DNA of 16,099 nucleotides from a virus. Its lineage: Duplodnaviria; Heunggongvirae; Uroviricota; Caudoviricetes. The stretch spans positions 1 to 16,099 of the IMG/VR virus record IMGVR_UViG_2802429227_000005, one strand, 5' to 3'. Position 1 is the stretch's first letter; each line of letters starts with the position of its first letter. The notes under the pieces are model-generated. The model ran no database searches and was not told the origin of the DNA. It saw only the letters and a list, made by a program, of their open reading frames with translations. The position numbers and the translations under genes were made by a program. Shown piece after piece: positions 1,185-16,099 of the stretch.

Positions 1185-2009
1185 TTATAGCTCCTTTAAT
1201 CGAGGCGGTTCTGGTAGTGGCATCCAGTGTGACGGCTCACATACCCCCTCAACACCATTCATGTAAAAGAATTGAAATAACCCTTTACCTTTGTGAAACC
1301 CTACCATCTGCTCTTTTGTGTCTGAGCAATAAACCAAAACATCTTCTTCGTTCGGCATTCGCTCACTACAGCTTATCCAACCATCCGGAGTTACCGGATA
1401 GTTGCCATTCACAAGGTCAGATCGAACATATAGCGTGTCATCATGGTGCTGATTGTGGCTGCACCACGTTAATTCGCTTAACTCGCCATCTTCTGGCCAT
1501 ACTCCAGCCGTTTGCAGCCAGATATGGGCTGGCGCATCTTGGCAAGGTGTATTAACTGGCAACTTGTAAGTTTGGCTTACAGGTTCGGCACCATGAAGCA
1601 TGGCGTCGCTCCGCTCTATGCCATCCAGCGCGATTCGCAGTGCATGAATTGTGGTAGAGCTATCGTTTGGGGCTATTCCATATCGCTCGAATACAGCTAA
1701 ATGGTTGCGCATAATCTCAGGCGTAAGCTCTTTGTAAGCATAAGCAAGAGGCTCTGATGCATTATCCTGCACAACCGACGCAGGCGCGGCAGCATAAACA
1801 GGAATAACGTCCGCTTGCTCTTTATTGCTTTCATCCGTTAAAGCCCAGAATAATTTTCCAGCCGGATGTTTGAAAATATAAGCAACTGGTTCTGCTTCCA
1901 GCGATGCCAGTGCAATTCGTGCCAGTTCCATTTGTTCGCCACGGGTAAGCCCGTTTTCAAGCGGATTTTTAATGAACAATTCAATACGTTCTTTGGTAAT
2001 AGAATTCAT
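1185..2009 (-). CDS. Phage protein with a DUF551-like C-terminal domain (274 aa)
   Basis: C-terminal motif ...CEPSHWMPLPEPP matches the W-x-PLPEPP signature I recall for DUF551 prophage proteins; last gene of a translationally coupled leftward operon. Confidence 0.6.
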   Translation of the reverse strand: MNSITKERIELFIKNPLENGLTRGEQMELARIALASLEAEPVAYIFKHPAGKLFWALTDESNKEQADVIPVYAAAPASVVQDNASEPLAYAYKELTPEIMRNHLAVFERYGIAPNDSSTTIHALRIALDGIERSDAMLHGAEPVSQTYKLPVNTPCQDAPAHIWLQTAGVWPEDGELSELTWCSHNQHHDDTLYVRSDLVNGNYPVTPDGWISCSERMPNEEDVLVYCSDTKEQMVGFHKGKGLFQFFYMNGVEGVCEPSHWMPLPEPPRLKEL

Positions 2010-4424: not shown

Positions 4425-5304
4425 CCTCCAGTTTCGCTTTGCATTCTATGTAAATGGCTTGTACGTTCTGCTGCAATTTCATTCCAGATGTCAGGCGATA
4501 TGCTTCTGCAAAATATCGCTTCAAATCATCCATGTTTTCTGCCTGAGCCATTTCATCACAAAGAAGTTGTGCTTTATCCATTATTTCCTGCTGGCGTTTC
4601 CGTTCATCTTCGCGGATATCTTCCTCTGATTTGTGCGGCATAACTGGTTCCTGATGCATACCTTCATCTTCGTTAAGCAGGTGAATGGCATTATCCAGTC
4701 GCTGGGCTTTAGGCCAGTATTTGCTGGCGCGTTTAACTATTGTTTTACGCGCCATCTCTTCCCAGAATGTTTTCCACGGTCCATTCTTTGCCTTGCTCGT
4801 TGCTTCCACAGCTTTAATTTCTGCCAGACTCATTTCTTCAGTCAGGTAGTCACCATCTGCTGTTTTAACCGTGCAATAACCACCAACAATAGAGCCTCGC
4901 TCACCAAATGCGTTGTATTTGTGGGTTGGTGCTGAATCAAGGCCATTTGATTCATAGGTGTCGTTTGAGTACACCAGTTTGCATTGCCCCCACTTAATTG
5001 ATCCTGTCGACTGTGCAAGGTGAAGTAATCCCATATAGCTGATATCAAGGCACACCATGCCGTCGCGCGGAACCAGATAAGCAAGTTTGCTGGCTGGGTT
5101 TAAGGTGATGCCGATCGCCGCAACATTGATGATGGCGTTCTGTGCGCTGGTTGGATTTGCCAGTGCCGTTTTAGCCAGGTAATCATTTTTCTGGAAATAC
5201 TGAATTGCAAACTGGCTTTCCTTAGCCCATGTCACCGTCTGTTCAGTCAATGCTCCGCAGAATAACTGCTCTTGCTGTTTAACGAATTCAACGATATTGC
5301 TCAT
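4402..5304 (-). CDS. recT: RecT-family single-strand annealing protein (300 aa)
   Basis: Motif NGPWKTFWEEMARKTIVKRASKYWP matches the conserved RecT core (E. coli RecT NGPWVTHWEEMAKKTAIRRLFKYLP); in the bet position of the early-left operon. Confidence 0.85.
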   Translation of the reverse strand: MSNIVEFVKQQEQLFCGALTEQTVTWAKESQFAIQYFQKNDYLAKTALANPTSAQNAIINVAAIGITLNPASKLAYLVPRDGMVCLDISYMGLLHLAQSTGSIKWGQCKLVYSNDTYESNGLDSAPTHKYNAFGERGSIVGGYCTVKTADGDYLTEEMSLAEIKAVEATSKAKNGPWKTFWEEMARKTIVKRASKYWPKAQRLDNAIHLLNEDEGMHQEPVMPHKSEEDIREDERKRQQEIMDKAQLLCDEMAQAENMDDLKRYFAEAYRLTSGMKLQQNVQAIYIECKAKLEVASEQTV

Positions 5305-5612
5305 GCTGCTTCTCCAAAAATGTGTCTGCGTTTGAATATTGCGAAGGCATATTCAGCCTTAACTCTTTCGGTTATTGCATCCCAGAACCATTCAGCGGCT
5401 TTTTCCTGATAGTTACAGTCATCATCTTCCAGCCAGTCGATAGCGTCCTTAGTGTGTTCATCTGGTTTATATGAGCGAAGCATTTCGCTTATTGGGTCGC
5501 AACGTTTGCAGAGGCGATCAACTTCACTGTTGATTCGTTCGTAATCTTCATCAGTAAAACTTGCGATTATTTGCGATATTTCACGCTTATCATTCAGAGT
5601 CAGAATCATCAT
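5301..5612 (-). CDS. Hypothetical acidic protein (103 aa) in the gam/arf position upstream of recT
   Basis: ORF with an AGGAG Shine-Dalgarno; ATGA stop/start overlap with recT; no resemblance to lambda Gam that I can see. Confidence 0.5.
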   Translation of the reverse strand: MMILTLNDKREISQIIASFTDEDYERINSEVDRLCKRCDPISEMLRSYKPDEHTKDAIDWLEDDDCNYQEKAAEWFWDAITERVKAEYAFAIFKRRHIFGEAA

Positions 5613-5693: not shown

Positions 5694-5846
5694 TCATTTC
5701 CTGCGATACCACGGAAGGTTGATAGCTGATTTCATCGCTTTATTTGCTTCAAGCCACATTTTGGAATCACCAATAAATCTGGCTATTACTGCTTTGTTCT
5801 GTGCAGCACGAAGCATCTGGTGATTAATGGCTATTTCATTGCGCAT
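5694..5846 (-). CDS. Small hypothetical protein (50 aa) in the kil position
   Basis: Manual translation: MRNEIAINHQMLRAAQNKAVIARFIGDSKMWLEANKAMKSAINLPWYRRK; start overlaps the 3' end of the CIII-like gene; between cIII-like and the recombination genes as kil is in lambda. Confidence 0.3.
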   Translation of the reverse strand: MRNEIAINHQMLRAAQNKAVIARFIGDSKMWLEANKAMKSAINLPWYRRK

Positions 5847-7169: not shown

Positions 7170-7442
7170 TCACCTCGCTGTCAGTTGTTTTGATTTCCGG
7201 TAGCCTGCCGCGTAAATGGCTACGTTTGGCAGGCAAATACTTCCACTGCATTCATCTGCCTTCTTGCAGCAAAGGCTTCCTAGTGATGCTGCTTTGTCTG
7301 CTCTGACGCAACCAGAGAGCTTTAGCGCAATTTTTCGCGCCAGTGCTTCATTACTGCGTCGCTCGGCAATAAGTTCTGCTCTGCGAGCTTTGTAGCGGCT
7401 TTTTGCCGTACCTTTGGATTCTTTCCAGACAATGGTTACCAT
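7170..7442 (-). CDS. N: N-like transcription antiterminator with an arginine-rich motif, phage-21 type (90 aa from the ATG at 7442)
   Basis: Arg-rich N-terminal segment GTAKSRYKARRAELIAERR matches the phi21 N RNA-binding peptide as I recall it; C-terminus YAAGYRKSKQLTAR resembles P22 gp24; GGAGA Shine-Dalgarno before the ATG at 7442; a nut site lies upstream. Confidence 0.7.
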   Translation of the reverse strand: MVTIVWKESKGTAKSRYKARRAELIAERRSNEALARKIALKLSGCVRADKAASLGSLCCKKADECSGSICLPNVAIYAAGYRKSKQLTAR

Positions 7443-7553
7443 GATGGTCTCCTTTAAGTGGCTTTGGCGCATGACGCGTCGAGGTGCTTATCTTCTCGAT
7501 CGCTGTCTTGCAGCTGCAATTCGCGCCATCCCCAAAACCACTCAAGTTCTGGT

Positions 7554-7756: not shown

Positions 7757-8407
7757 TTAAGGAAGGTTTGCTAGCTTGGCATCAACGACAACGCCAATGA
7801 TTTTACAGTTCCCATTGATTTCAATCATTGGGTATTGTGGATTGAGTGGTTTCAGGAATTTTCTACCGGCATCAATAACTAACTTTTTGAATGTCGCCTC
7901 GTTTTCTCCTTCAAGTTTGGCGACTACCAGCTTTCCATTACGTGGTTCGACTTCTGGGTCGACGAGAATAATCATCCCCTCAGGAATACTCAGTCCTGCC
8001 GGGGCAGTCATTGAATCGCCTTTAACGTCGAGCCAAAAAGAGTCTTCAGAACAATCTACCGTTGTGTCGTACCAGTTATCTATTGCACGCCTATGATATG
8101 GCTCTACAGCTTCCATCCAACATCCTGCGCTTACCCAACTAATTAGAGGATACGAACCTCTTGGATCATGCCTGCTGTGATAGGCAATGTTTGAAAGACT
8201 ATCCTCTCCTTTCAACAGGTAATCAGGGGAGCACTGCAAAGCCTTGGCTAAGGCCAATAGGTTTTCGCCATTGGGCTCAGTTTCAGATCGCTCCCACTGG
8301 GAAATAGCAACATTAGACACGCCAACCATCTTGCCAAGGGCAGCCTGCCTAATCTTGAGTTCTTTTCTGCGAGCGCGAATACGCTCACCCATCAGTTGTG
8401 TATTCAT
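7757..8407 (-). CDS. c2: Phage repressor, P22 C2 type (HTH_XRE N-terminal domain plus LexA/S24-like C-terminal domain; 216 aa)
   Basis: Translation MNTQLMGERIRARRKELKIRQAALGKMVGVSNVAISQWERSETEP... matches the P22 c2 repressor almost residue for residue as I recall it; C-terminal GDSM and K (Ser-Lys dyad) self-cleavage motifs are present. Confidence 0.9.
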   Translation of the reverse strand: MNTQLMGERIRARRKELKIRQAALGKMVGVSNVAISQWERSETEPNGENLLALAKALQCSPDYLLKGEDSLSNIAYHSRHDPRGSYPLISWVSAGCWMEAVEPYHRRAIDNWYDTTVDCSEDSFWLDVKGDSMTAPAGLSIPEGMIILVDPEVEPRNGKLVVAKLEGENEATFKKLVIDAGRKFLKPLNPQYPMIEINGNCKIIGVVVDAKLANLP

Positions 8408-8487: not shown

Positions 8488-8673
8488 ATGTACAAAAAAG
8501 ATGTTATTGACCACTTCGGAACCCAGCGTGCTGTTGCTAAAGCACTAGGCATTAGCGATGCAGCAGTCTCTCAGTGGAAAGAAGTTATCCCAGAGAAAGA
8601 CGCCTATCGATTGGAAATCGTTACAGCTGGCGCCCTGAAGTATCAAGAAAGTGCTTACCGCCAAGCGGCATAA
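8488..8673 (+). CDS. cro: Cro repressor, P22 type (61 aa)
   Basis: Translation MYKKDVIDHFGTQRAVAKALGISDAAVSQWKEVIPEKDAYRLEIVTAGALKYQESAYRQAA matches P22 Cro as I recall it; GGAG Shine-Dalgarno; divergent from c2 across OR. Confidence 0.85.
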   Translation: MYKKDVIDHFGTQRAVAKALGISDAAVSQWKEVIPEKDAYRLEIVTAGALKYQESAYRQAA

Positions 8674-8778: not shown

Positions 8779-8811
8779 AAATTAACAAATGGCACAAGCA
8801 AGCTACAGCAA
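8779..8811 (-). promoter_or_regulatory. pRE-like CII-dependent promoter: TTGC-N6-TTGC (8798..8811) then 13 nt then -10 TAATTT (8779..8784), leftward
   Basis: Minus strand GCTTGCTGTAGCTTGC-TTGTGCCATTTGT-TAATTT; the TTGC repeats lie in the first codons of the cII-like gene, as in lambda pRE. Confidence 0.55.
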
Positions 8812-9085
8812 GCCAACACAGCGAGAAATTGATCGCGCTGAAACTGATTTACTCATCAACCTGTCAACGCTTACCCAGCGCGGTCTGGCAAAGATGATTG
8901 GCTGTCATGAATCGAAGATAAGCAGAACGGACTGGAGATTTATTGCTTCGGTCTTGTGTGCTTTCGGAATGGCATCAGACATCAGTCCGATTAGCAGGGC
9001 TTTTAAGTATGCGCTTGATGAAATCACAAAGAAAAAATCCCCGGTGGCCGCCGGGGACTCTAAGCAAATTGATATGCAATTCTGA
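8789..9085 (+). CDS. c1: CII-like transcriptional activator (P22 c1 type; 98 aa)
   Basis: Pattern similarity to lambda CII: ...ESKISRTDWRF... against ...KSQISRWKRDW..., and C-terminus TKKKSPVAAGDSKQIDMQF against TNKKRPAATERSEQIQMEF; position after cro and nutR. Confidence 0.75.
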   Translation: MAQASYSKPTQREIDRAETDLLINLSTLTQRGLAKMIGCHESKISRTDWRFIASVLCAFGMASDISPISRAFKYALDEITKKKSPVAAGDSKQIDMQF

Positions 9086-13844: not shown

Positions 13845-14203
13845 ACGAATATCAGTTTGTGCTTCCATACCCGCCGTCGGTGAATACCTACTGGCGAAGA
13901 CGAGGAAGCCAATACTACATCAGCGATAAAGGCCAGAAATACCGAAAAGACGTTCAGCAAATCATCCGCCAACTTAAGTTAGACATTTTCACCAAATCAC
14001 GACTCCGCATCAAAGTAATCGCAGACGTTCCAGACTCCCGCCGCCGCGACCTCGACAACATCCTGAAAGGTTTACTCGACTCCCTTATCCACGCCGGATT
14101 TGCGGAAGACGACGAGCAATTCGATGACATTCGCGTAATTCGTGGTGTGAAAGTACCAGGCGGACGGCTTGGAATAAAAATCACCGAACTGGAGAACGTA
14201 TGA
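13841..14203 (+). CDS. rusA: RusA Holliday-junction resolvase (120 aa)
   Basis: Similarity to E. coli RusA (LPYPPSVNTYWRRRG..., DLDNILKGLLDSLIHAGF..DDEQ against LPWPPSNNRYYRHNRG..., DLDNLQKAAFDALTKAGF..DDAQ); ATGA overlap with upstream gene. Confidence 0.85.
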   Translation: MNEYQFVLPYPPSVNTYWRRRGSQYYISDKGQKYRKDVQQIIRQLKLDIFTKSRLRIKVIADVPDSRRRDLDNILKGLLDSLIHAGFAEDDEQFDDIRVIRGVKVPGGRLGIKITELENV

Positions 14204-14388
14204 ACGCCACAATTCAAACGATACCAGAGCTTCTTATCCAGACACGAGGCAATCAGACCGAAGTGGCGAGGATGCTTTCCTGCGCAAGAGGAACAGTGCT
14301 CAAGTACAACCGAGACAGCAAAGGCGAGCGTCACGTAATAGTTAACGGCGTCCTGATGGTCACGCCAGGCAAAAAGGGAAGACGATGA
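14200..14388 (+). CDS. ninH: NinH-like small HTH protein (62 aa)
   Basis: TIPELLIQTRGNQTEVARMLSCARGTVLKYNRDSKGERHVIVNGVLMV against lambda NinH TIPDMLVEAYGNQTEVARRLKCSRGTVRKYVDDKDGKMHAIVNDVLMV. Confidence 0.7.
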   Translation: MNATIQTIPELLIQTRGNQTEVARMLSCARGTVLKYNRDSKGERHVIVNGVLMVTPGKKGRR

Positions 14389-14903
14389 GCATAAGAGAGC
14401 TAAACCTCACCAAAGAACAGCACGATTGGCTGAATGGCTGGCTTGAACTGTGGGGCGCATGGGTTTATTCAGGTCGTCTGGAAAAGCGCATGAGCAGCGT
14501 AATAGCGAAGTTCATGGAGAGCGTAGAGCCGGGAAGAGTTATGACAAGGCCAATGTGCAATGATGATGATGGAATGTTGATTTCTCAGGTCGTCGATTCT
14601 GTCATGTGCATTGACAAGAAAGCCTTTGGCATCCTCCTCAGCTACTACGCTCATGGTTCATCTAAGCGAGCAATTGCATCCTACTATCACGCGACTGCAA
14701 AGCCACGCAAGATGTGTGGACGCGGTGGCGAGGGATGGAGAAAACCTTCACTGGCAACCTGTAGAAACGAAATTGACGATATCCTGAAAGCGTCATTATT
14801 TGTTTTGTACCAACCAATGCAAAATGCTTTCAAAATGCGTAAACGTGTTGAGAAAGTTAAGCATGTTGCTGTTAAAAGCCTTGACATGCAATTAGCCATT
14901 TAG
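14385..14903 (+). CDS. Q: Late-gene antiterminator Q, non-lambda type (172 aa)
   Basis: Last gene before a PR'-like promoter and the lysis cassette; N-terminal LELWGAWV motif and Cys-rich segment resemble non-lambda Q families as I recall them; ATGA-coupled to ninH. Confidence 0.55.
   Translation: MSIRELNLTKEQHDWLNGWLELWGAWVYSGRLEKRMSSVIAKFMESVEPGRVMTRPMCNDDDGMLISQVVDSVMCIDKKAFGILLSYYAHGSSKRAIASYYHATAKPRKMCGRGGEGWRKPSLATCRNEIDDILKASLFVLYQPMQNAFKMRKRVEKVKHVAVKSLDMQLAI
14678..14710 (-). promoter_or_regulatory. paQ-like CII-dependent antisense promoter inside Q: TTGC-N6-TTGC (14697..14710) then 13 nt then -10 TAGGAT (14678..14683)
   Basis: Minus strand TTGCGTGGCTTTGC-AGTCGCGTGATAG-TAGGAT; identical spacing architecture to the pRE-like site at 8779..8811. 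Confidence 0.45.
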
Positions 14904-14910
14904 CCATAAT
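14881..14910 (+). promoter_or_regulatory. PR' late promoter candidate (-35 TTGACA at 14881..14886, 18-bp spacer, -10 CATAAT at 14905..14910); qut expected to overlap
   Basis: Consensus-like hexamers overlapping the Q stop codon; oriented toward S/R. Confidence 0.45.
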
Positions 14911-14920
14911 TAGAGGGTAA

Positions 14921-14962
14921 GCTGCCATTAGTGACTCTTAAGTTGCAACGGTGGCTTTTTTT
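14921..14962 (+). terminator. tR'-like terminator candidate: weak hairpin followed by a T7 run (14956..14962)
   Basis: GCCATT...GGTGGC imperfect stem (includes G-U pairs) then TTTTTTT; lies about 45 nt downstream of the predicted PR' start. The hairpin is weak. Confidence 0.3.
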
Positions 14963-15382
14963 GTTTGCACAACAGGTAAGAGCATTGAACCCTCAGACCT
15001 CGCGGAATTGGTGAAAGGTGCCGCGCAGTGCTCTTATCGTTGTGGTGAATGCACAGGCTGATGTGTAAGGGCAAGAATCTTTCGCTGGATTCGGTGTGGC
15101 CACGTAGCCCGCTGTAGGCAGTTGCAGCAAACCGGAGATCAGCACCGGTCGCCACAATCCAAACTGAGCCGTAGCCACTGGCTATCCTGAACTCATCAGT
15201 GATAGTTATGCTGCGGCCTTCTACATATGACCTTCGTGAAAGCGGGTGGCAAGAGGCTGCGCTAACAACCTCATGCCGTTTTGCCCGTGCATATCGGTCA
15301 CGAACAAATCTGATTACTAAACACAGTAGCCTGGATTTGTTCTATCAGTAATCGACCTTATTCCTAATTAAATAGAGCAAAT

Positions 15383-15396
15383 CCCCTTATTGGGGG
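15383..15396 (+). promoter_or_regulatory. sdi-like stem-loop (CCCC-TTATT-GGGG) immediately upstream of the dual start of S
   Basis: Hairpin overlapping the Shine-Dalgarno for the Met1/Met3 starts (ATGAAGATG at 15403..15411), as in lambda S translational control. Confidence 0.5.
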
Positions 15397-15402
15397 TAAG
15401 AC

Positions 15403-15726
15403 ATGAAGATGCCAGAAAAACATGACCTGTTAGCTGCCATTCTCGCGGCAAAGGAACAAGGCATCGGGGCAATCCTTGCGTTTGCAATGGCGTACCTTCG
15501 CGGCAGATATAATGGCGGTGCGTTTACAAAAACAGTAATCGACGCAACGATGTGCGCCATTATCGCCTGGTTCATTCGTGACCTTCTCGACTTCGCCGGA
15601 CTAAGTAGCAATCTCGCTTATATAACGAGCGTGTTTATCGGCTACATCGGTACTGACTCGATTGGTTCGCTTATCAAACGCTTCGCTGCTAAAAAAGCCG
15701 GAGTAGAAGATGGTGGAAATCAATAA
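15403..15726 (+). CDS. S: Holin S, lambda type, with dual start (S107 antiholin / S105 holin; 107 aa)
   Basis: Translation [107 protein letters not shown] is essentially lambda S as I recall it. Confidence 0.9.
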
Positions 15727-16045
15727 TCAACGTAAGGCGTTCCTCGATATGCTGGCGTGGTCAGAGGGAACTGATAACGGACGACAGAAAACCAGAAATC
15801 ATGGTTATGACGTCATTGTAGGCGGAGAGCTATTCACTGATTACTCAGATCACCCTCGCAAACTTGTCACGCTAAACCCAAAACTCAAATCAACAGCAGC
15901 CGGGCGCTATCAGCTTCTTTCCCGTTGGTGGGATGCCTATCGTAAGCAGCTTGGCCTGAAAGACTTCTCTCCGAAAAGCCAGGACGCTGTGGCACTGCAA
16001 CAGATTAAAGAGCGTGGCGCTTTACCGATGATTGATCGCGGTGAT
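15710..16045 (+). pseudogene. R: Endolysin R (lambda-type lytic transglycosylase) truncated after codon 112 by an IS2 insertion
   Basis: Translation [42 protein letters not shown]...IKERGALPMIDRGD matches lambda R, then at 16046 the frame runs into IS2 terminal sequence (WICPYISRHLL...) instead of continuing as lambda R does. Confidence 0.85.
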
Positions 16046-16099
16046 TGGATTTGCCCCTATATTTCCAGACATCTGTTATCACTTAACCCATTACAAGCC
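16046..16099 (-). mobile_element. IS2 right end (inverted repeat plus the 3' end of the transposase ORF), partial, cut by the window edge
   Basis: TGGATTTGCCCCTATATTTCCAGACATCTGTTATCACTTAACCCATTACAAGCC is the reverse complement of the IS2 right terminus as I recall it; minus strand 16057..16099 encodes ...ACNGLSDNRCLEI-stop, the transposase C-terminus. Confidence 0.8.

What the first reader, a model, noticed from the sequence alone, without database searches (positions are those of the whole stretch)
14678..14710. Second CII-type site (paQ-like) inside a non-lambda Q gene
Inside the Q ORF, on the antisense strand, is TTGC GTGGCT TTGC, then 13 nt, then TAGGAT: the same spacing as the pRE-like site. 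Lambda has a CII-dependent antisense promoter (paQ) inside Q that delays late gene expression. Here the Q protein is of a different family, so this would be convergent or recombination-preserved placement of the antisense control. Chance occurrence of one such motif in 16 kb is not negligible (expected roughly 0.5), which tempers confidence.
Basis: inference. Interest (0 to 1): 0.6.

Follow-up and report, generated by a model that had tools for sequence, protein, structure and literature searches.

The report
CII-activated antisense promoter inside Q
The motif is real and almost certainly a working copy of lambda's "anti-Q" promoter, here inside an unrelated type of Q gene and kept by selection across many gut-bacterial prophages; curators have already predicted the same site in phage 21.

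Summary
Observation confirmed. The minus strand 14710..14678 reads TTGC-GTGGCT-TTGC, 13 nt, TAGGAT, inside Q (14385..14903, Q21 family, PF06530).

The full pattern TTGC-N6-TTGC-N13-TAnnnT is expected 0.02 times per window and occurs 3 times.

In 40 diverged Q21-family genes (down to 60% nt identity, Escherichia to Proteus and Xenorhabdus), 34 keep the exact repeat at the same codons:
- The three synonymous positions it needs are frozen: Ala105 GCA 37/37, Arg108 CGC 36/40, Ala98 GCA 32/37.
- The N6 spacer varies freely.

In 818 kb of such loci the pattern occurs 60 times, only in Q (44) or at the cII 5' end (16). Control spacings give 0-3.

Linked to one cII allele, lambda-type Q (23/23) and Q21-type Q (22/22) both carry a site, although the two Q proteins are non-homologous. 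The placement is therefore convergent.

Prior art is limited to GenBank OL657228, which annotates a predicted paQ at the identical offset in phage 21 Q. No experiment is known.

Extras:
- A 21-nt invariant block (14571..14591) co-varies with the site.
- A third CII-type site lies at 5561..5593 (+).

Verdict: a real, ordinary-in-kind paQ analogue; new member of a known kind.

The parts
14697..14710 (-). CII-type binding site: direct repeat TTGC-GTGGCT-TTGC; the N6 (14701-14706) is the weak -35 region
   Evidence: Searches show the sequence. The exact repeat sits at the same codons in 34 of 40 diverged Q21-family representatives. Ala105 is GCA 37/37 and Arg108 is CGC 36/40, against family-wide usage of 30% and 20%. 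GenBank OL657228 annotates the same offset in phage 21 Q as a CII binding site and paQ -35.
14678..14683 (-). -10 hexamer TAGGAT, 13 nt downstream of the proximal TTGC
   Evidence: One search shows the sequence. TAnnnT is kept across the family (TAAGAT, TACGAT, TAGGAT, TACACT, TAGACT), even where residue 99 changes. The T at -7 is the third base of Ala98, which is GCA 32/37. Lambda paQ and the window's pRE-like site have the same spacing.
14671..14671 (-). Predicted start of the antisense (aQ-like) RNA, about 7 nt after the -10, at Q nt ~287. The transcript would run leftward over Q codons 1-96 and into ninH.
   Evidence: Inferred from promoter geometry only. No intrinsic terminator or conserved RNA structure was found downstream.
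14385..14903 (+). Q late-gene antiterminator, Q21 family, 172 aa; the target of the antisense promoter
   Evidence: PF06530 at E 1.5e-25. PDB 6jnx/6p18 at about 4e-90, with residues 1-102 nearly identical to phage 21 Q and the C-terminal part diverged.
14571..14591 (.). 21-nt invariant block GGAATGTTGATTTCTCAGGTC (Q codons 63-69; +81..+101 of the predicted antisense RNA). Candidate second element of the antisense module; function unknown.
   Evidence: All third positions are frozen in paQ-bearing genes. 33 of 34 paQ-bearing representatives have 0 synonymous changes, while 6 of 6 paQ-lacking ones have at least 2 (Fisher 1.8e-6, phylogeny ignored). Of 118 viral contigs with the exact 21-mer, 116 have enough sequence to check, and all 116 carry it inside a Q21-type gene together with the composite paQ.
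8789..9085 (+). cII (P22 c1-type) activator gene, the presumed regulator of the site
   Evidence: PF05269 at E 2.5e-32. Distant match to the lambda CII structure 1xwr at E 0.0033, with the ...SxISR... recognition segment aligned.
8779..8811 (-). pRE-like CII-dependent promoter in the first codons of cII (TTGCTGTAGCTTGC-N13-TAATTT). It shows that this phage's CII regulon uses the same architecture.
   Evidence: The same placement (repeat ending 22 nt into cII) recurs in most diverged loci.

Best explanation
The site is a CII-dependent antisense promoter inside the Q gene, a functional analogue of lambda paQ.

Proposed mechanism: when CII (8789..9085) accumulates during an infection heading for lysogeny, it binds the TTGC-N6-TTGC repeat that straddles a poor -35. 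It then recruits RNA polymerase to the weak -10 (TAGGAT), and transcription starts near 14671 and runs leftward. The antisense RNA and/or the convergent transcription lowers Q production. This delays or blocks Q-dependent read-through from pR' (14881..14910) into the lysis and late genes.

Shown here: the architecture, its statistical specificity, purifying selection on it across the Q21 family, its linkage to cII-bearing phages, and its independent presence in non-homologous lambda-type Q genes.

Inferred from lambda: CII binding, the transcription start, and the effect on Q.
For: 1. Exact architecture, shared with the window's pRE-like site and with lambda paQ.

2. The composite pattern occurs 3 times in the window against 0.02 expected.

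3. In 818 kb of 54 diverse Q21-type loci the composite occurs 60 times, all on the antisense strand: 44 at this position in Q and 16 at the cII 5' end. 34 control spacings give 0-3 hits each.

4. Synonymous-site selection. Among 47 highly degenerate, amino-acid-conserved codon columns, the 8 with the lowest third-position entropy are exactly the three motif positions (Ala105 0.0, Arg108 0.55, Ala98 0.70 bits) plus five in the 21-nt block. Typical values are 1.4-2.0 bits. Pro107, in the N6 spacer, is free (1.75 bits). Three pre-specified sites falling among the lowest 7 of 47 has probability 35/16215 = 0.002.

5. Codon 106 changes amino acid (K/N/S/I/R) in the 34 motif-bearing genes but always keeps A as its first base (34/34). 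Ser is AGT, never TCN; Arg there is AGA.

6. Given the protein sequence and family codon usage, the motif is expected in 6% of genes. It is observed in 34 of 40.

7. The site is not a good constitutive sigma-70 promoter (the consensus scan does not call it). That fits dependence on an activator.

8. A CII-like ORF lies upstream in 26 of 27 motif-bearing representatives with enough flank. 24 of 29 candidate ORFs hit PF05269. Most carry a pRE-type repeat 22 nt into cII.

9. Linked to the same cII allele, lambda-type Q (23/23) and Q21-type Q (22/22) both carry a composite site.

10. Curators independently annotated the same offset in phage 21 as paQ.
Against: - There is no experimental evidence for any Q21-family gene. 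The phage 21 annotation is a pattern match (ttgynnnnnnttgy), and the same curators marked several such matches in phage 434.
- No intrinsic terminator or conserved structure was found for the antisense RNA, whereas lambda-type Q genes have an annotated PaQ terminator near the Q 5' end.
- This phage's CII is only distantly similar to lambda CII (E 0.0033), so its DNA specificity is inferred from its own pRE-like site.
- The control is not universal. 933W-type Q genes (PF06530, 31% identical) linked to the same cII allele have no site, not even with one mismatch. Three Q21-type representatives with a CII-like gene upstream also lack it.
- The BTP1 prophage transcriptome (Q 93.6% identical) lists no ncRNA inside Q. 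This is expected, because CII is off in lysogens, so it is uninformative.
Confidence: 0.85

Rival explanations
1. Chance occurrence of a short motif with no function.
For: The bare TTGCN6TTGC is expected 1.3 times per window. A fourth copy at 1815..1828 (+) has no -10 and looks like chance.
Against: The composite is expected 0.02 times per window. It is conserved at the same codons in 34 of 40 diverged homologues, with frozen synonymous positions and a free spacer. There are 60 hits against 0-3 for control spacings.
Confidence: 0.01
2. The nucleotides are conserved for a reason unrelated to CII. Candidates are a codon or mRNA-structure constraint on Q translation, or a short conserved 'linker' that promotes recombination at the mosaic joint between the conserved N-terminal part and the variable C-terminal part of Q.
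For: Identity to phage 21 Q drops exactly after residue 102, next to the site, so the site does sit at a mosaic boundary. A nearby 21-nt block is also frozen for unknown reasons.
Against: The conservation pattern is discontinuous and matches the promoter template position by position: TTGC frozen, N6 free with 16 variants, TTGC frozen, 13-nt spacer variable, TAnnnT frozen even across amino-acid changes. A recombination linker or an RNA helix would need a contiguous or paired block. RNAalifold finds no conserved structure. The same template recurs at cII in the same genomes.
Confidence: 0.05
3. A genuine CII binding site that does not act as a promoter, for example a roadblock to rightward pR transcription through Q, or a CII sink.
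For: The -10 (TAGGAT) is weak. No terminator defines a discrete antisense RNA. In Q82-type genes a conserved antisense TTGC-N6-TTGC exists without a correctly spaced -10.
Against: In the Q21 family, TAnnnT at exactly N13 is conserved, including its synonymous T at -7 (Ala98 GCA 32/37). A pure binding site would not need this. The geometry is identical to proven CII promoters.
Confidence: 0.07

Closest known systems
Lambda paQ / aQ RNA (CII-dependent antisense promoter inside lambda Q)
   Same: TTGC-N6-TTGC, 13 nt, TAnnnT on the antisense strand of Q. It lies a similar distance into the gene: predicted start about 261 nt into lambda Q against about 286 nt here. It belongs to the same regulon as pRE. 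Its role of lowering Q and late-gene expression during lysogenisation is described in PMC2327240 and PMC12197685.
   Different: The host gene is non-homologous: PF03589 against PF06530, with no structural similarity (PMC9388147). The sites therefore cannot be homologous by descent. Lambda-type Q genes have an annotated antisense terminator near the Q 5' end; none was found here.
Predicted paQ in phage 21 Q (GenBank OL657228, Feiss et al. 2022, PMC9119081)
   Same: Homologous gene and identical codon offset: CII site at Q nt 313-326 and -10 at nt 294-299. The phage 21 sequence is TTGCGAGGTCTTGC-N13-TAAGAT.
   Different: It is a database annotation by pattern match only. The paper's text does not discuss it and no experiment is cited. 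The window's Q has a different C-terminal half, N6 and -10 variant. Near-identical Q genes in Sf6, HK629, HK75 and CUS-3 are not annotated with it.
P22 / epsilon34 PaQ (C1-dependent anti-gene-23 promoter)
   Same: A P22-type c1/CII activator with a TTGCN6TTGC target and an antisense promoter in the late regulator gene. Predicted for epsilon34 in PMC2629481. The P22 case is from my own knowledge (Ho et al. 1992, J Biol Chem) and was not checked here.
   Different: Those Q/23 genes are lambda-type.
Lambda pRE and the window's own pRE-like site
   Same: The same activator and the same composite architecture.
   Different: pRE drives cI expression, and only incidentally anti-cro RNA. It sits in cII, not in Q.

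Membership tests
CII-dependent promoters (lambda pRE / pI / paQ class) | Direct repeat TTGC-N6-TTGC flanking a poor -35 | tested here: met
   14710-14697 reads TTGCGTGGCTTTGC. The N6 GTGGCT matches TTGACA at 3 of 6 positions. The sigma-70 consensus scan does not call the site.
CII-dependent promoters (lambda pRE / pI / paQ class) | -10 hexamer 13 nt downstream of the proximal TTGC | tested here: met
   TAGGAT at 14683-14678. Same spacing as lambda paQ (TAGTAT) and the window's pRE-like site (TAATTT). Conserved as TAnnnT across the family.
CII-dependent promoters (lambda pRE / pI / paQ class) | A cognate CII-family activator encoded by the same element | tested here: met
   ORF 8789..9085 hits PF05269 at E 2.5e-32. 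A CII-like ORF lies upstream in 26 of 27 motif-bearing representatives with enough flank.
CII-dependent promoters (lambda pRE / pI / paQ class) | Transcription that depends on CII, in vitro or in vivo | not testable with these tools
   No transcript data cover the lysogenic-establishment phase. The BTP1 lysogen data are uninformative.
paQ-type anti-Q control | Located inside the Q gene and oriented antisense to it | tested here: met
   Q nt 294-326 of 519, minus strand.
paQ-type anti-Q control | Under selection as a DNA element, beyond the protein code | tested here: met
   (see the For line).
paQ-type anti-Q control | Discrete antisense RNA ending at an intrinsic terminator near the Q 5' end (lambda aQ about 220 nt; PaQ terminator annotated in epsilon34) | tested here: inconclusive
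   No terminator-like site found on the minus strand. No consensus structure. The scan also missed tR', so its sensitivity is limited.
paQ-type anti-Q control | Antisense transcription lowers Q activity or delays late genes | not testable with these tools
   Needs genetics and reporter assays.
Homologue by descent of lambda paQ | Embedded in homologous coding sequence | tested here: not met
   The window Q is PF06530 and lambda Q is PF03589. The two are structurally unrelated. It works like paQ but is an independent acquisition.
Q21 family of antiterminators | Match to PF06530 and to the Q21 structures | tested here: met

The most novel reading that the evidence does not exclude
Anti-Q control has been invented independently in structurally unrelated Q genes, at nearly the same distance from the start codon. 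In the Q21 family it is a two-part module: the CII promoter plus a 21-nt invariant, unstructured stretch about 85 nt into the antisense RNA. That stretch would be needed for the RNA's action, for example as the seed for pairing, or as a processing or Rho/Hfq site. In addition, this phage's CII regulon would include a further, undescribed antisense promoter in the leftward operon (5561..5593, aimed at kil and cIII).
Probability: 0.3. Interest if true: 0.6.

Novelty: new member of a known kind. Interest (0 to 1): 0.4.

Why it matters
The result shows that CII-driven antisense repression of the late-gene switch is not peculiar to lambda and P22. It is held by purifying selection across a second, non-homologous Q family, in prophages of Escherichia, Salmonella, Yersinia, Pantoea, Serratia, Proteus, Providencia, Xenorhabdus and others. 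That makes anti-Q control look like a core, convergently evolved part of the lysis-lysogeny decision.

It also gives annotators a highly specific rule. TTGC-N6-TTGC-N13-TAnnnT gave essentially no false positives in about 2 Mb examined here.

The co-varying 21-nt block offers a concrete handle on how the little-studied aQ RNA works. Because the key bases sit at synonymous positions, clean knock-outs can be made without changing Q.

Tried and rejected
- **Rfam.** Search of 14000-15400 at E up to 1 gave no hit.
- **Antisense RNA structure.** RNAalifold on 34 antisense sequences found no conserved structure. Local folds show the block region of the antisense RNA is unstructured (-0.6 kcal/mol, z +1.26). 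The sense hairpin is not significant.
- **Terminator for the antisense RNA.** Neither the consensus scan nor a T-run plus hairpin scan found one.
- **Antisense ORF 14654..14469 (61 aa) as a coding target of the promoter.** Rejected. In many homologues the same antisense frame is broken by stops. Sense TCA, TTA and CTA codons are common at codons 29, 72, 84 and 85.
- **Experimental support from the BTP1 transcriptome** (Q 93.6% identical). No ncRNA is listed inside Q, but the data come from lysogens, where CII is off.
- **epsilon34 'PaQ' as prior art for this family.** Rejected. Its Q is lambda-type.
- **E. coli K-12 QuuQ as a seed for the Q82 family.** It turned out to be PF03589. Phage 434 Q (PF06323) was used instead.
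- **A shared CTGNNAAA motif about +85 downstream of the three predicted CII-type promoters.** Considered and dropped. At pRE it is simply the complement of the nutR boxA (GCTCTTTAACAG).
- **Second copy or complementary target of the 21-mer in the window.** None within 3 mismatches.
- **Retrieval bias as the cause of the frozen block.** Rejected. Flanking codons covered by the same retrieval peptides (D60, D62, V70, S72) vary freely at third positions.

Full report
**What is in the sequence.** On the minus strand, 14710-14697 reads TTGC GTGGCT TTGC. It is followed by 13 nt (AGTCGCGTGATAG) and then TAGGAT at 14683-14678. The site lies inside, and antisense to, the 172-codon ORF 14385..14903.

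That ORF is a Q antiterminator of the phage 21 family. It hits PF06530 at E 1.5e-25 and the Q21 structures 6jnx/6p18 at E about 4e-90. Residues 1-102 are almost identical to phage 21 Q, and the C-terminal part is diverged.

The window is a lambdoid early region with these genes:
- N-like 7170-7472 (-)
- CI-type repressor 7757-8407 (-)
- P22-type cro 8488-8673 (+)
- cII 8789-9085 (+)
- replication and nin genes
- Q
- pR' at 14881-14910
.

The cII ORF hits PF05269 at E 2.5e-32. In its first codons, on the minus strand, it carries TTGCTGTAGCTTGC-N13-TAATTT (8811..8779). This is the classical pRE arrangement, with the same spacing as the site in Q.

**Is it more than chance?** The bare repeat TTGCN6TTGC is common: 4 hits against 1.3 expected. 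The whole architecture, TTGC-N6-TTGC-N13-TAnnnT, is expected 0.02 times per window and is found three times. None of 200 shuffles gives more than one hit. The three hits are the pRE-like site, the Q site, and a third site at 5561..5593 (+), discussed below.

I collected Q21-family genes from three sources: 54 species-level genome loci, viral contigs and phage records. I codon-aligned 113 unique genes and reduced them to 40 representatives below 95% nucleotide identity.

Thirty-four of the 40 keep an exact TTGC-N6-TTGC at the same codons. They go down to 60% nucleotide identity and span Escherichia, Salmonella, Atlantibacter, Pantoea, Yersinia, Rahnella, Erwinia, Serratia, Edwardsiella, Morganella, Proteus, Providencia, Xenorhabdus and Photorhabdus.

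The peptide A-x-P-R-K is invariant, so only some bases are informative. Those bases behave as a promoter predicts:
- Ala105 is GCA in 37/37 genes; family-wide usage elsewhere is 30%.
- Arg108 is CGC in 36/40; usage elsewhere is 20%.
- Ala98, whose third base is the -7 T of the -10, is GCA in 32/37.
- Pro107, inside the N6 spacer, uses all four codons.

Residue 106 changes among K, N, S, I and R in the 34 motif-bearing genes, yet its codon always begins with A (34/34). Ser is AGT and never TCN; Arg there is AGA. The N6 has 16 different sequences and the 13-nt spacer varies. The -10 remains TAnnnT even where residue 99 is replaced, for example TACACT and TAGACT.

Among the 47 amino-acid-conserved, highly degenerate codon columns, the eight lowest third-position entropies are the three motif positions plus five positions of a neighbouring block. 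All the rest lie between 0.84 and 1.98 bits. Three pre-specified sites falling among the lowest 7 of 47 has probability 35/16215 = 0.002. Given the protein sequence and family codon usage, the motif would be expected in about 6% of genes, not 85%.

**Specificity of the composite.** The 54 genome loci total 818 kb, scanned on both strands. The composite occurs 60 times, always on the strand antisense to the early-right operon: 44 times at this position in Q and 16 times at the 5' end of cII. Thirty-four control patterns with other repeat or -10 spacings give 0-3 hits each.

**Link to CII.** A CII-like ORF lies 4-8 kb upstream in 26 of the 27 motif-bearing representatives with enough flank. Of the 29 candidate ORFs, 24 hit PF05269. 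Most have a TTGC repeat ending 22 nt into the gene. The three most divergent Q genes without the site (L134-L136) have no CII-like gene within 9 kb. Three others (L110, L117, L130) have one but lack the site, so the control is common but not obligatory.

Eighty viral contigs carrying essentially this window's cII allele (at least 94% identity) give a natural mosaic experiment:
- All 23 complete lambda-type Q genes carry a lambda-type paQ site; 20 have TTGCGAGCACTTGC-N13-TAGTAT exactly, the rest close variants.
- All 22 Q21-type Q genes carry the site studied here.
- The five 933W-type Q genes (144 aa, PF06530, 31% identical to Q21) have nothing, even allowing one mismatch.
In these contigs the composite occurs nowhere else except at cII and at the third site.

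**Comparison with lambda.** Lambda paQ sits at Q nt 288-301 of 624, with a predicted start about 261 nt into the gene. The window site is at nt 313-326 of 519, with a start about 286 nt in. Q-lambda and Q21 share neither sequence nor fold and are described as purely functional analogues (PMC9388147). The two antisense promoters must therefore have arisen independently, so the placement is convergent.

In lambda, CII-activated paQ transcription reduces Q function and late-gene expression during the lysogenic response (PMC2327240). The aQ RNA is about 220 nt and is thought to act in cis (PMC12197685).

One difference stands out. Lambda-type Q genes have an annotated antisense terminator near the Q 5' end (epsilon34 record). 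I found no terminator or conserved structure for the predicted RNA here.

**Prior knowledge.** The complete phage 21 record (OL657228) annotates a 'CII binding site matches ttgynnnnnnttgy', a paQ -35 and a paQ -10 at exactly the homologous offsets of Q21. The accompanying announcement does not discuss it (PMC9119081). The same curators marked every such pattern match in phage 434, so this is a prediction and not a finding.

Records with near-identical Q genes (Sf6, HK629, HK75, CUS-3) do not annotate it. The epsilon34 paper's PaQ concerns a lambda-type Q. I found no paper reporting the family-wide conservation or any experiment.

The feature is therefore a new member of a known kind. It has been predicted once in a database, and here it is supported by strong comparative evidence.

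**A second element that goes with it.** Codons 63-69 (14571..14591, GGAATGTTGATTTCTCAGGTC) are frozen at every position, including all third positions, in the paQ-bearing genes. Neighbouring codons in the same conserved peptide vary freely, which rules out retrieval bias.

The block co-varies with the promoter:
- 33 of 34 paQ-bearing representatives have no synonymous change in it.
- All 6 paQ-lacking ones have at least 2, including L110, which keeps the identical peptide (Fisher 1.8e-6, phylogeny not corrected).
- Conversely, of 118 viral contigs containing the exact 21-mer, 116 have enough sequence to check. All 116 have it in a Q21-type gene with the composite paQ downstream.

The block lies at +81..+101 of the predicted antisense RNA, in an A/C-rich stretch that folds less well than shuffled controls. 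It has no second copy in the window and no Rfam match. Its role is unexplained. An accessible pairing seed, a processing site, or a Rho/Hfq entry site on the antisense RNA are hypotheses only.

**A third CII-type site.** 5561..5593 (+) reads TTGCGATTATTTGC-N13-TATCAT. It lies antisense inside the 5' end of a 103-codon gene of unknown function (phrog_3486), just upstream of recT in the leftward operon. It points at kil (5694-5846) and cIII (5831 to about 5966).

In four diverged homologue lineages it is kept in three. L387 is 77% identical at the protein level, has 7 of 13 spacer bases changed, and keeps both TTGC repeats and TATCAT intact. The site is lost in one lineage. This suggests, without proving, a further CII-dependent antisense promoter acting on the pL operon.

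**Other Q families.** Phage 434-type Q (PF06323, the Q82 family) has an antisense TTGC-N6-TTGC at nt 666-679 of 690 in 80 of 80 contigs sampled, with variation in the N6. It has no TAnnnT at the canonical spacing. Those genes are only 87-100% identical, so conservation there is not yet informative.

**Verdict.** The most likely function is a CII-dependent anti-Q promoter (confidence about 0.85). It works like lambda paQ but is not its homologue. Interest is moderate: a specialist would expect it, and curators have already guessed it for phage 21. The convergent origin, the strength of selection, the co-varying 21-nt block and the extra site in the left operon are new, testable details.

Noticed in passing
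window 5561..5593 (+): A third full CII-type promoter pattern (TTGCGATTATTTGC-N13-TATCAT). It lies antisense inside the 5' end of the unknown gene 5301..5612 (-) in the leftward operon and points at kil and cIII. It is kept in 3 of 4 diverged homologue lineages despite spacer changes. It may be an undescribed CII-dependent antisense promoter against the pL operon.
   Followed up: partly
window 14571..14591: A 21-nt block, GGAATGTTGATTTCTCAGGTC (Q codons 63-69), is invariant at all positions in paQ-bearing Q21-family genes. It accumulates synonymous changes exactly where the paQ site is absent (33/34 against 0/6). The 21-mer was found only in Q21-type genes (all 118 viral contigs), and all 116 with enough sequence also carry the paQ site. 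Function unknown.
   Followed up: yes
window 14891..14906 (+), between the pR' -35 (14881-14886) and -10 (14905-14910): The direct repeat ATTAGCCA/TTTAGCCA occupies the place of the phage 21 Q-binding element, annotated in OL657228 as ATTGAGCA/AATGAGCA. Together with the diverged C-terminal half of this Q, this suggests a Q variant with a different DNA specificity.
   Followed up: no
window 14688..14700 (Q residues ~102-106): Near-identity to phage 21 Q ends at residue 102 and the proteins diverge from there. The mosaic joint within Q therefore coincides with the paQ site.
   Followed up: no
window 1815..1828 (+): A fourth TTGCN6TTGC (TTGCTCTTTATTGC) inside the minus-strand ORF 1185..2009. It has no TAnnnT at the right spacing and is probably chance.
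   Followed up: yes
L304 762..775 (-) (phage 434 Q, Q82 family) and loci L305-L384: An antisense TTGC-N6-TTGC at nt 666-679 of the 690-nt Q82-type gene in 80 of 80 contigs. The N6 varies but there is no correctly spaced -10. OL657226 annotates it as the paQ -35.
   Followed up: partly
L148, L149, L161, L186, L191 (933W-type Q, 141-158 aa as called; one truncated): These Q genes are linked to the same cII allele as the window but have no CII-type site, even with one mismatch. Anti-Q control is not universal among cII-bearing lambdoid phages.
   Followed up: partly
window 14900..16099: There are no tRNA genes downstream of the late terminator, unlike phage 21 and Sf6, which carry tRNA-Asn and tRNA-Thr there.
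   Followed up: no
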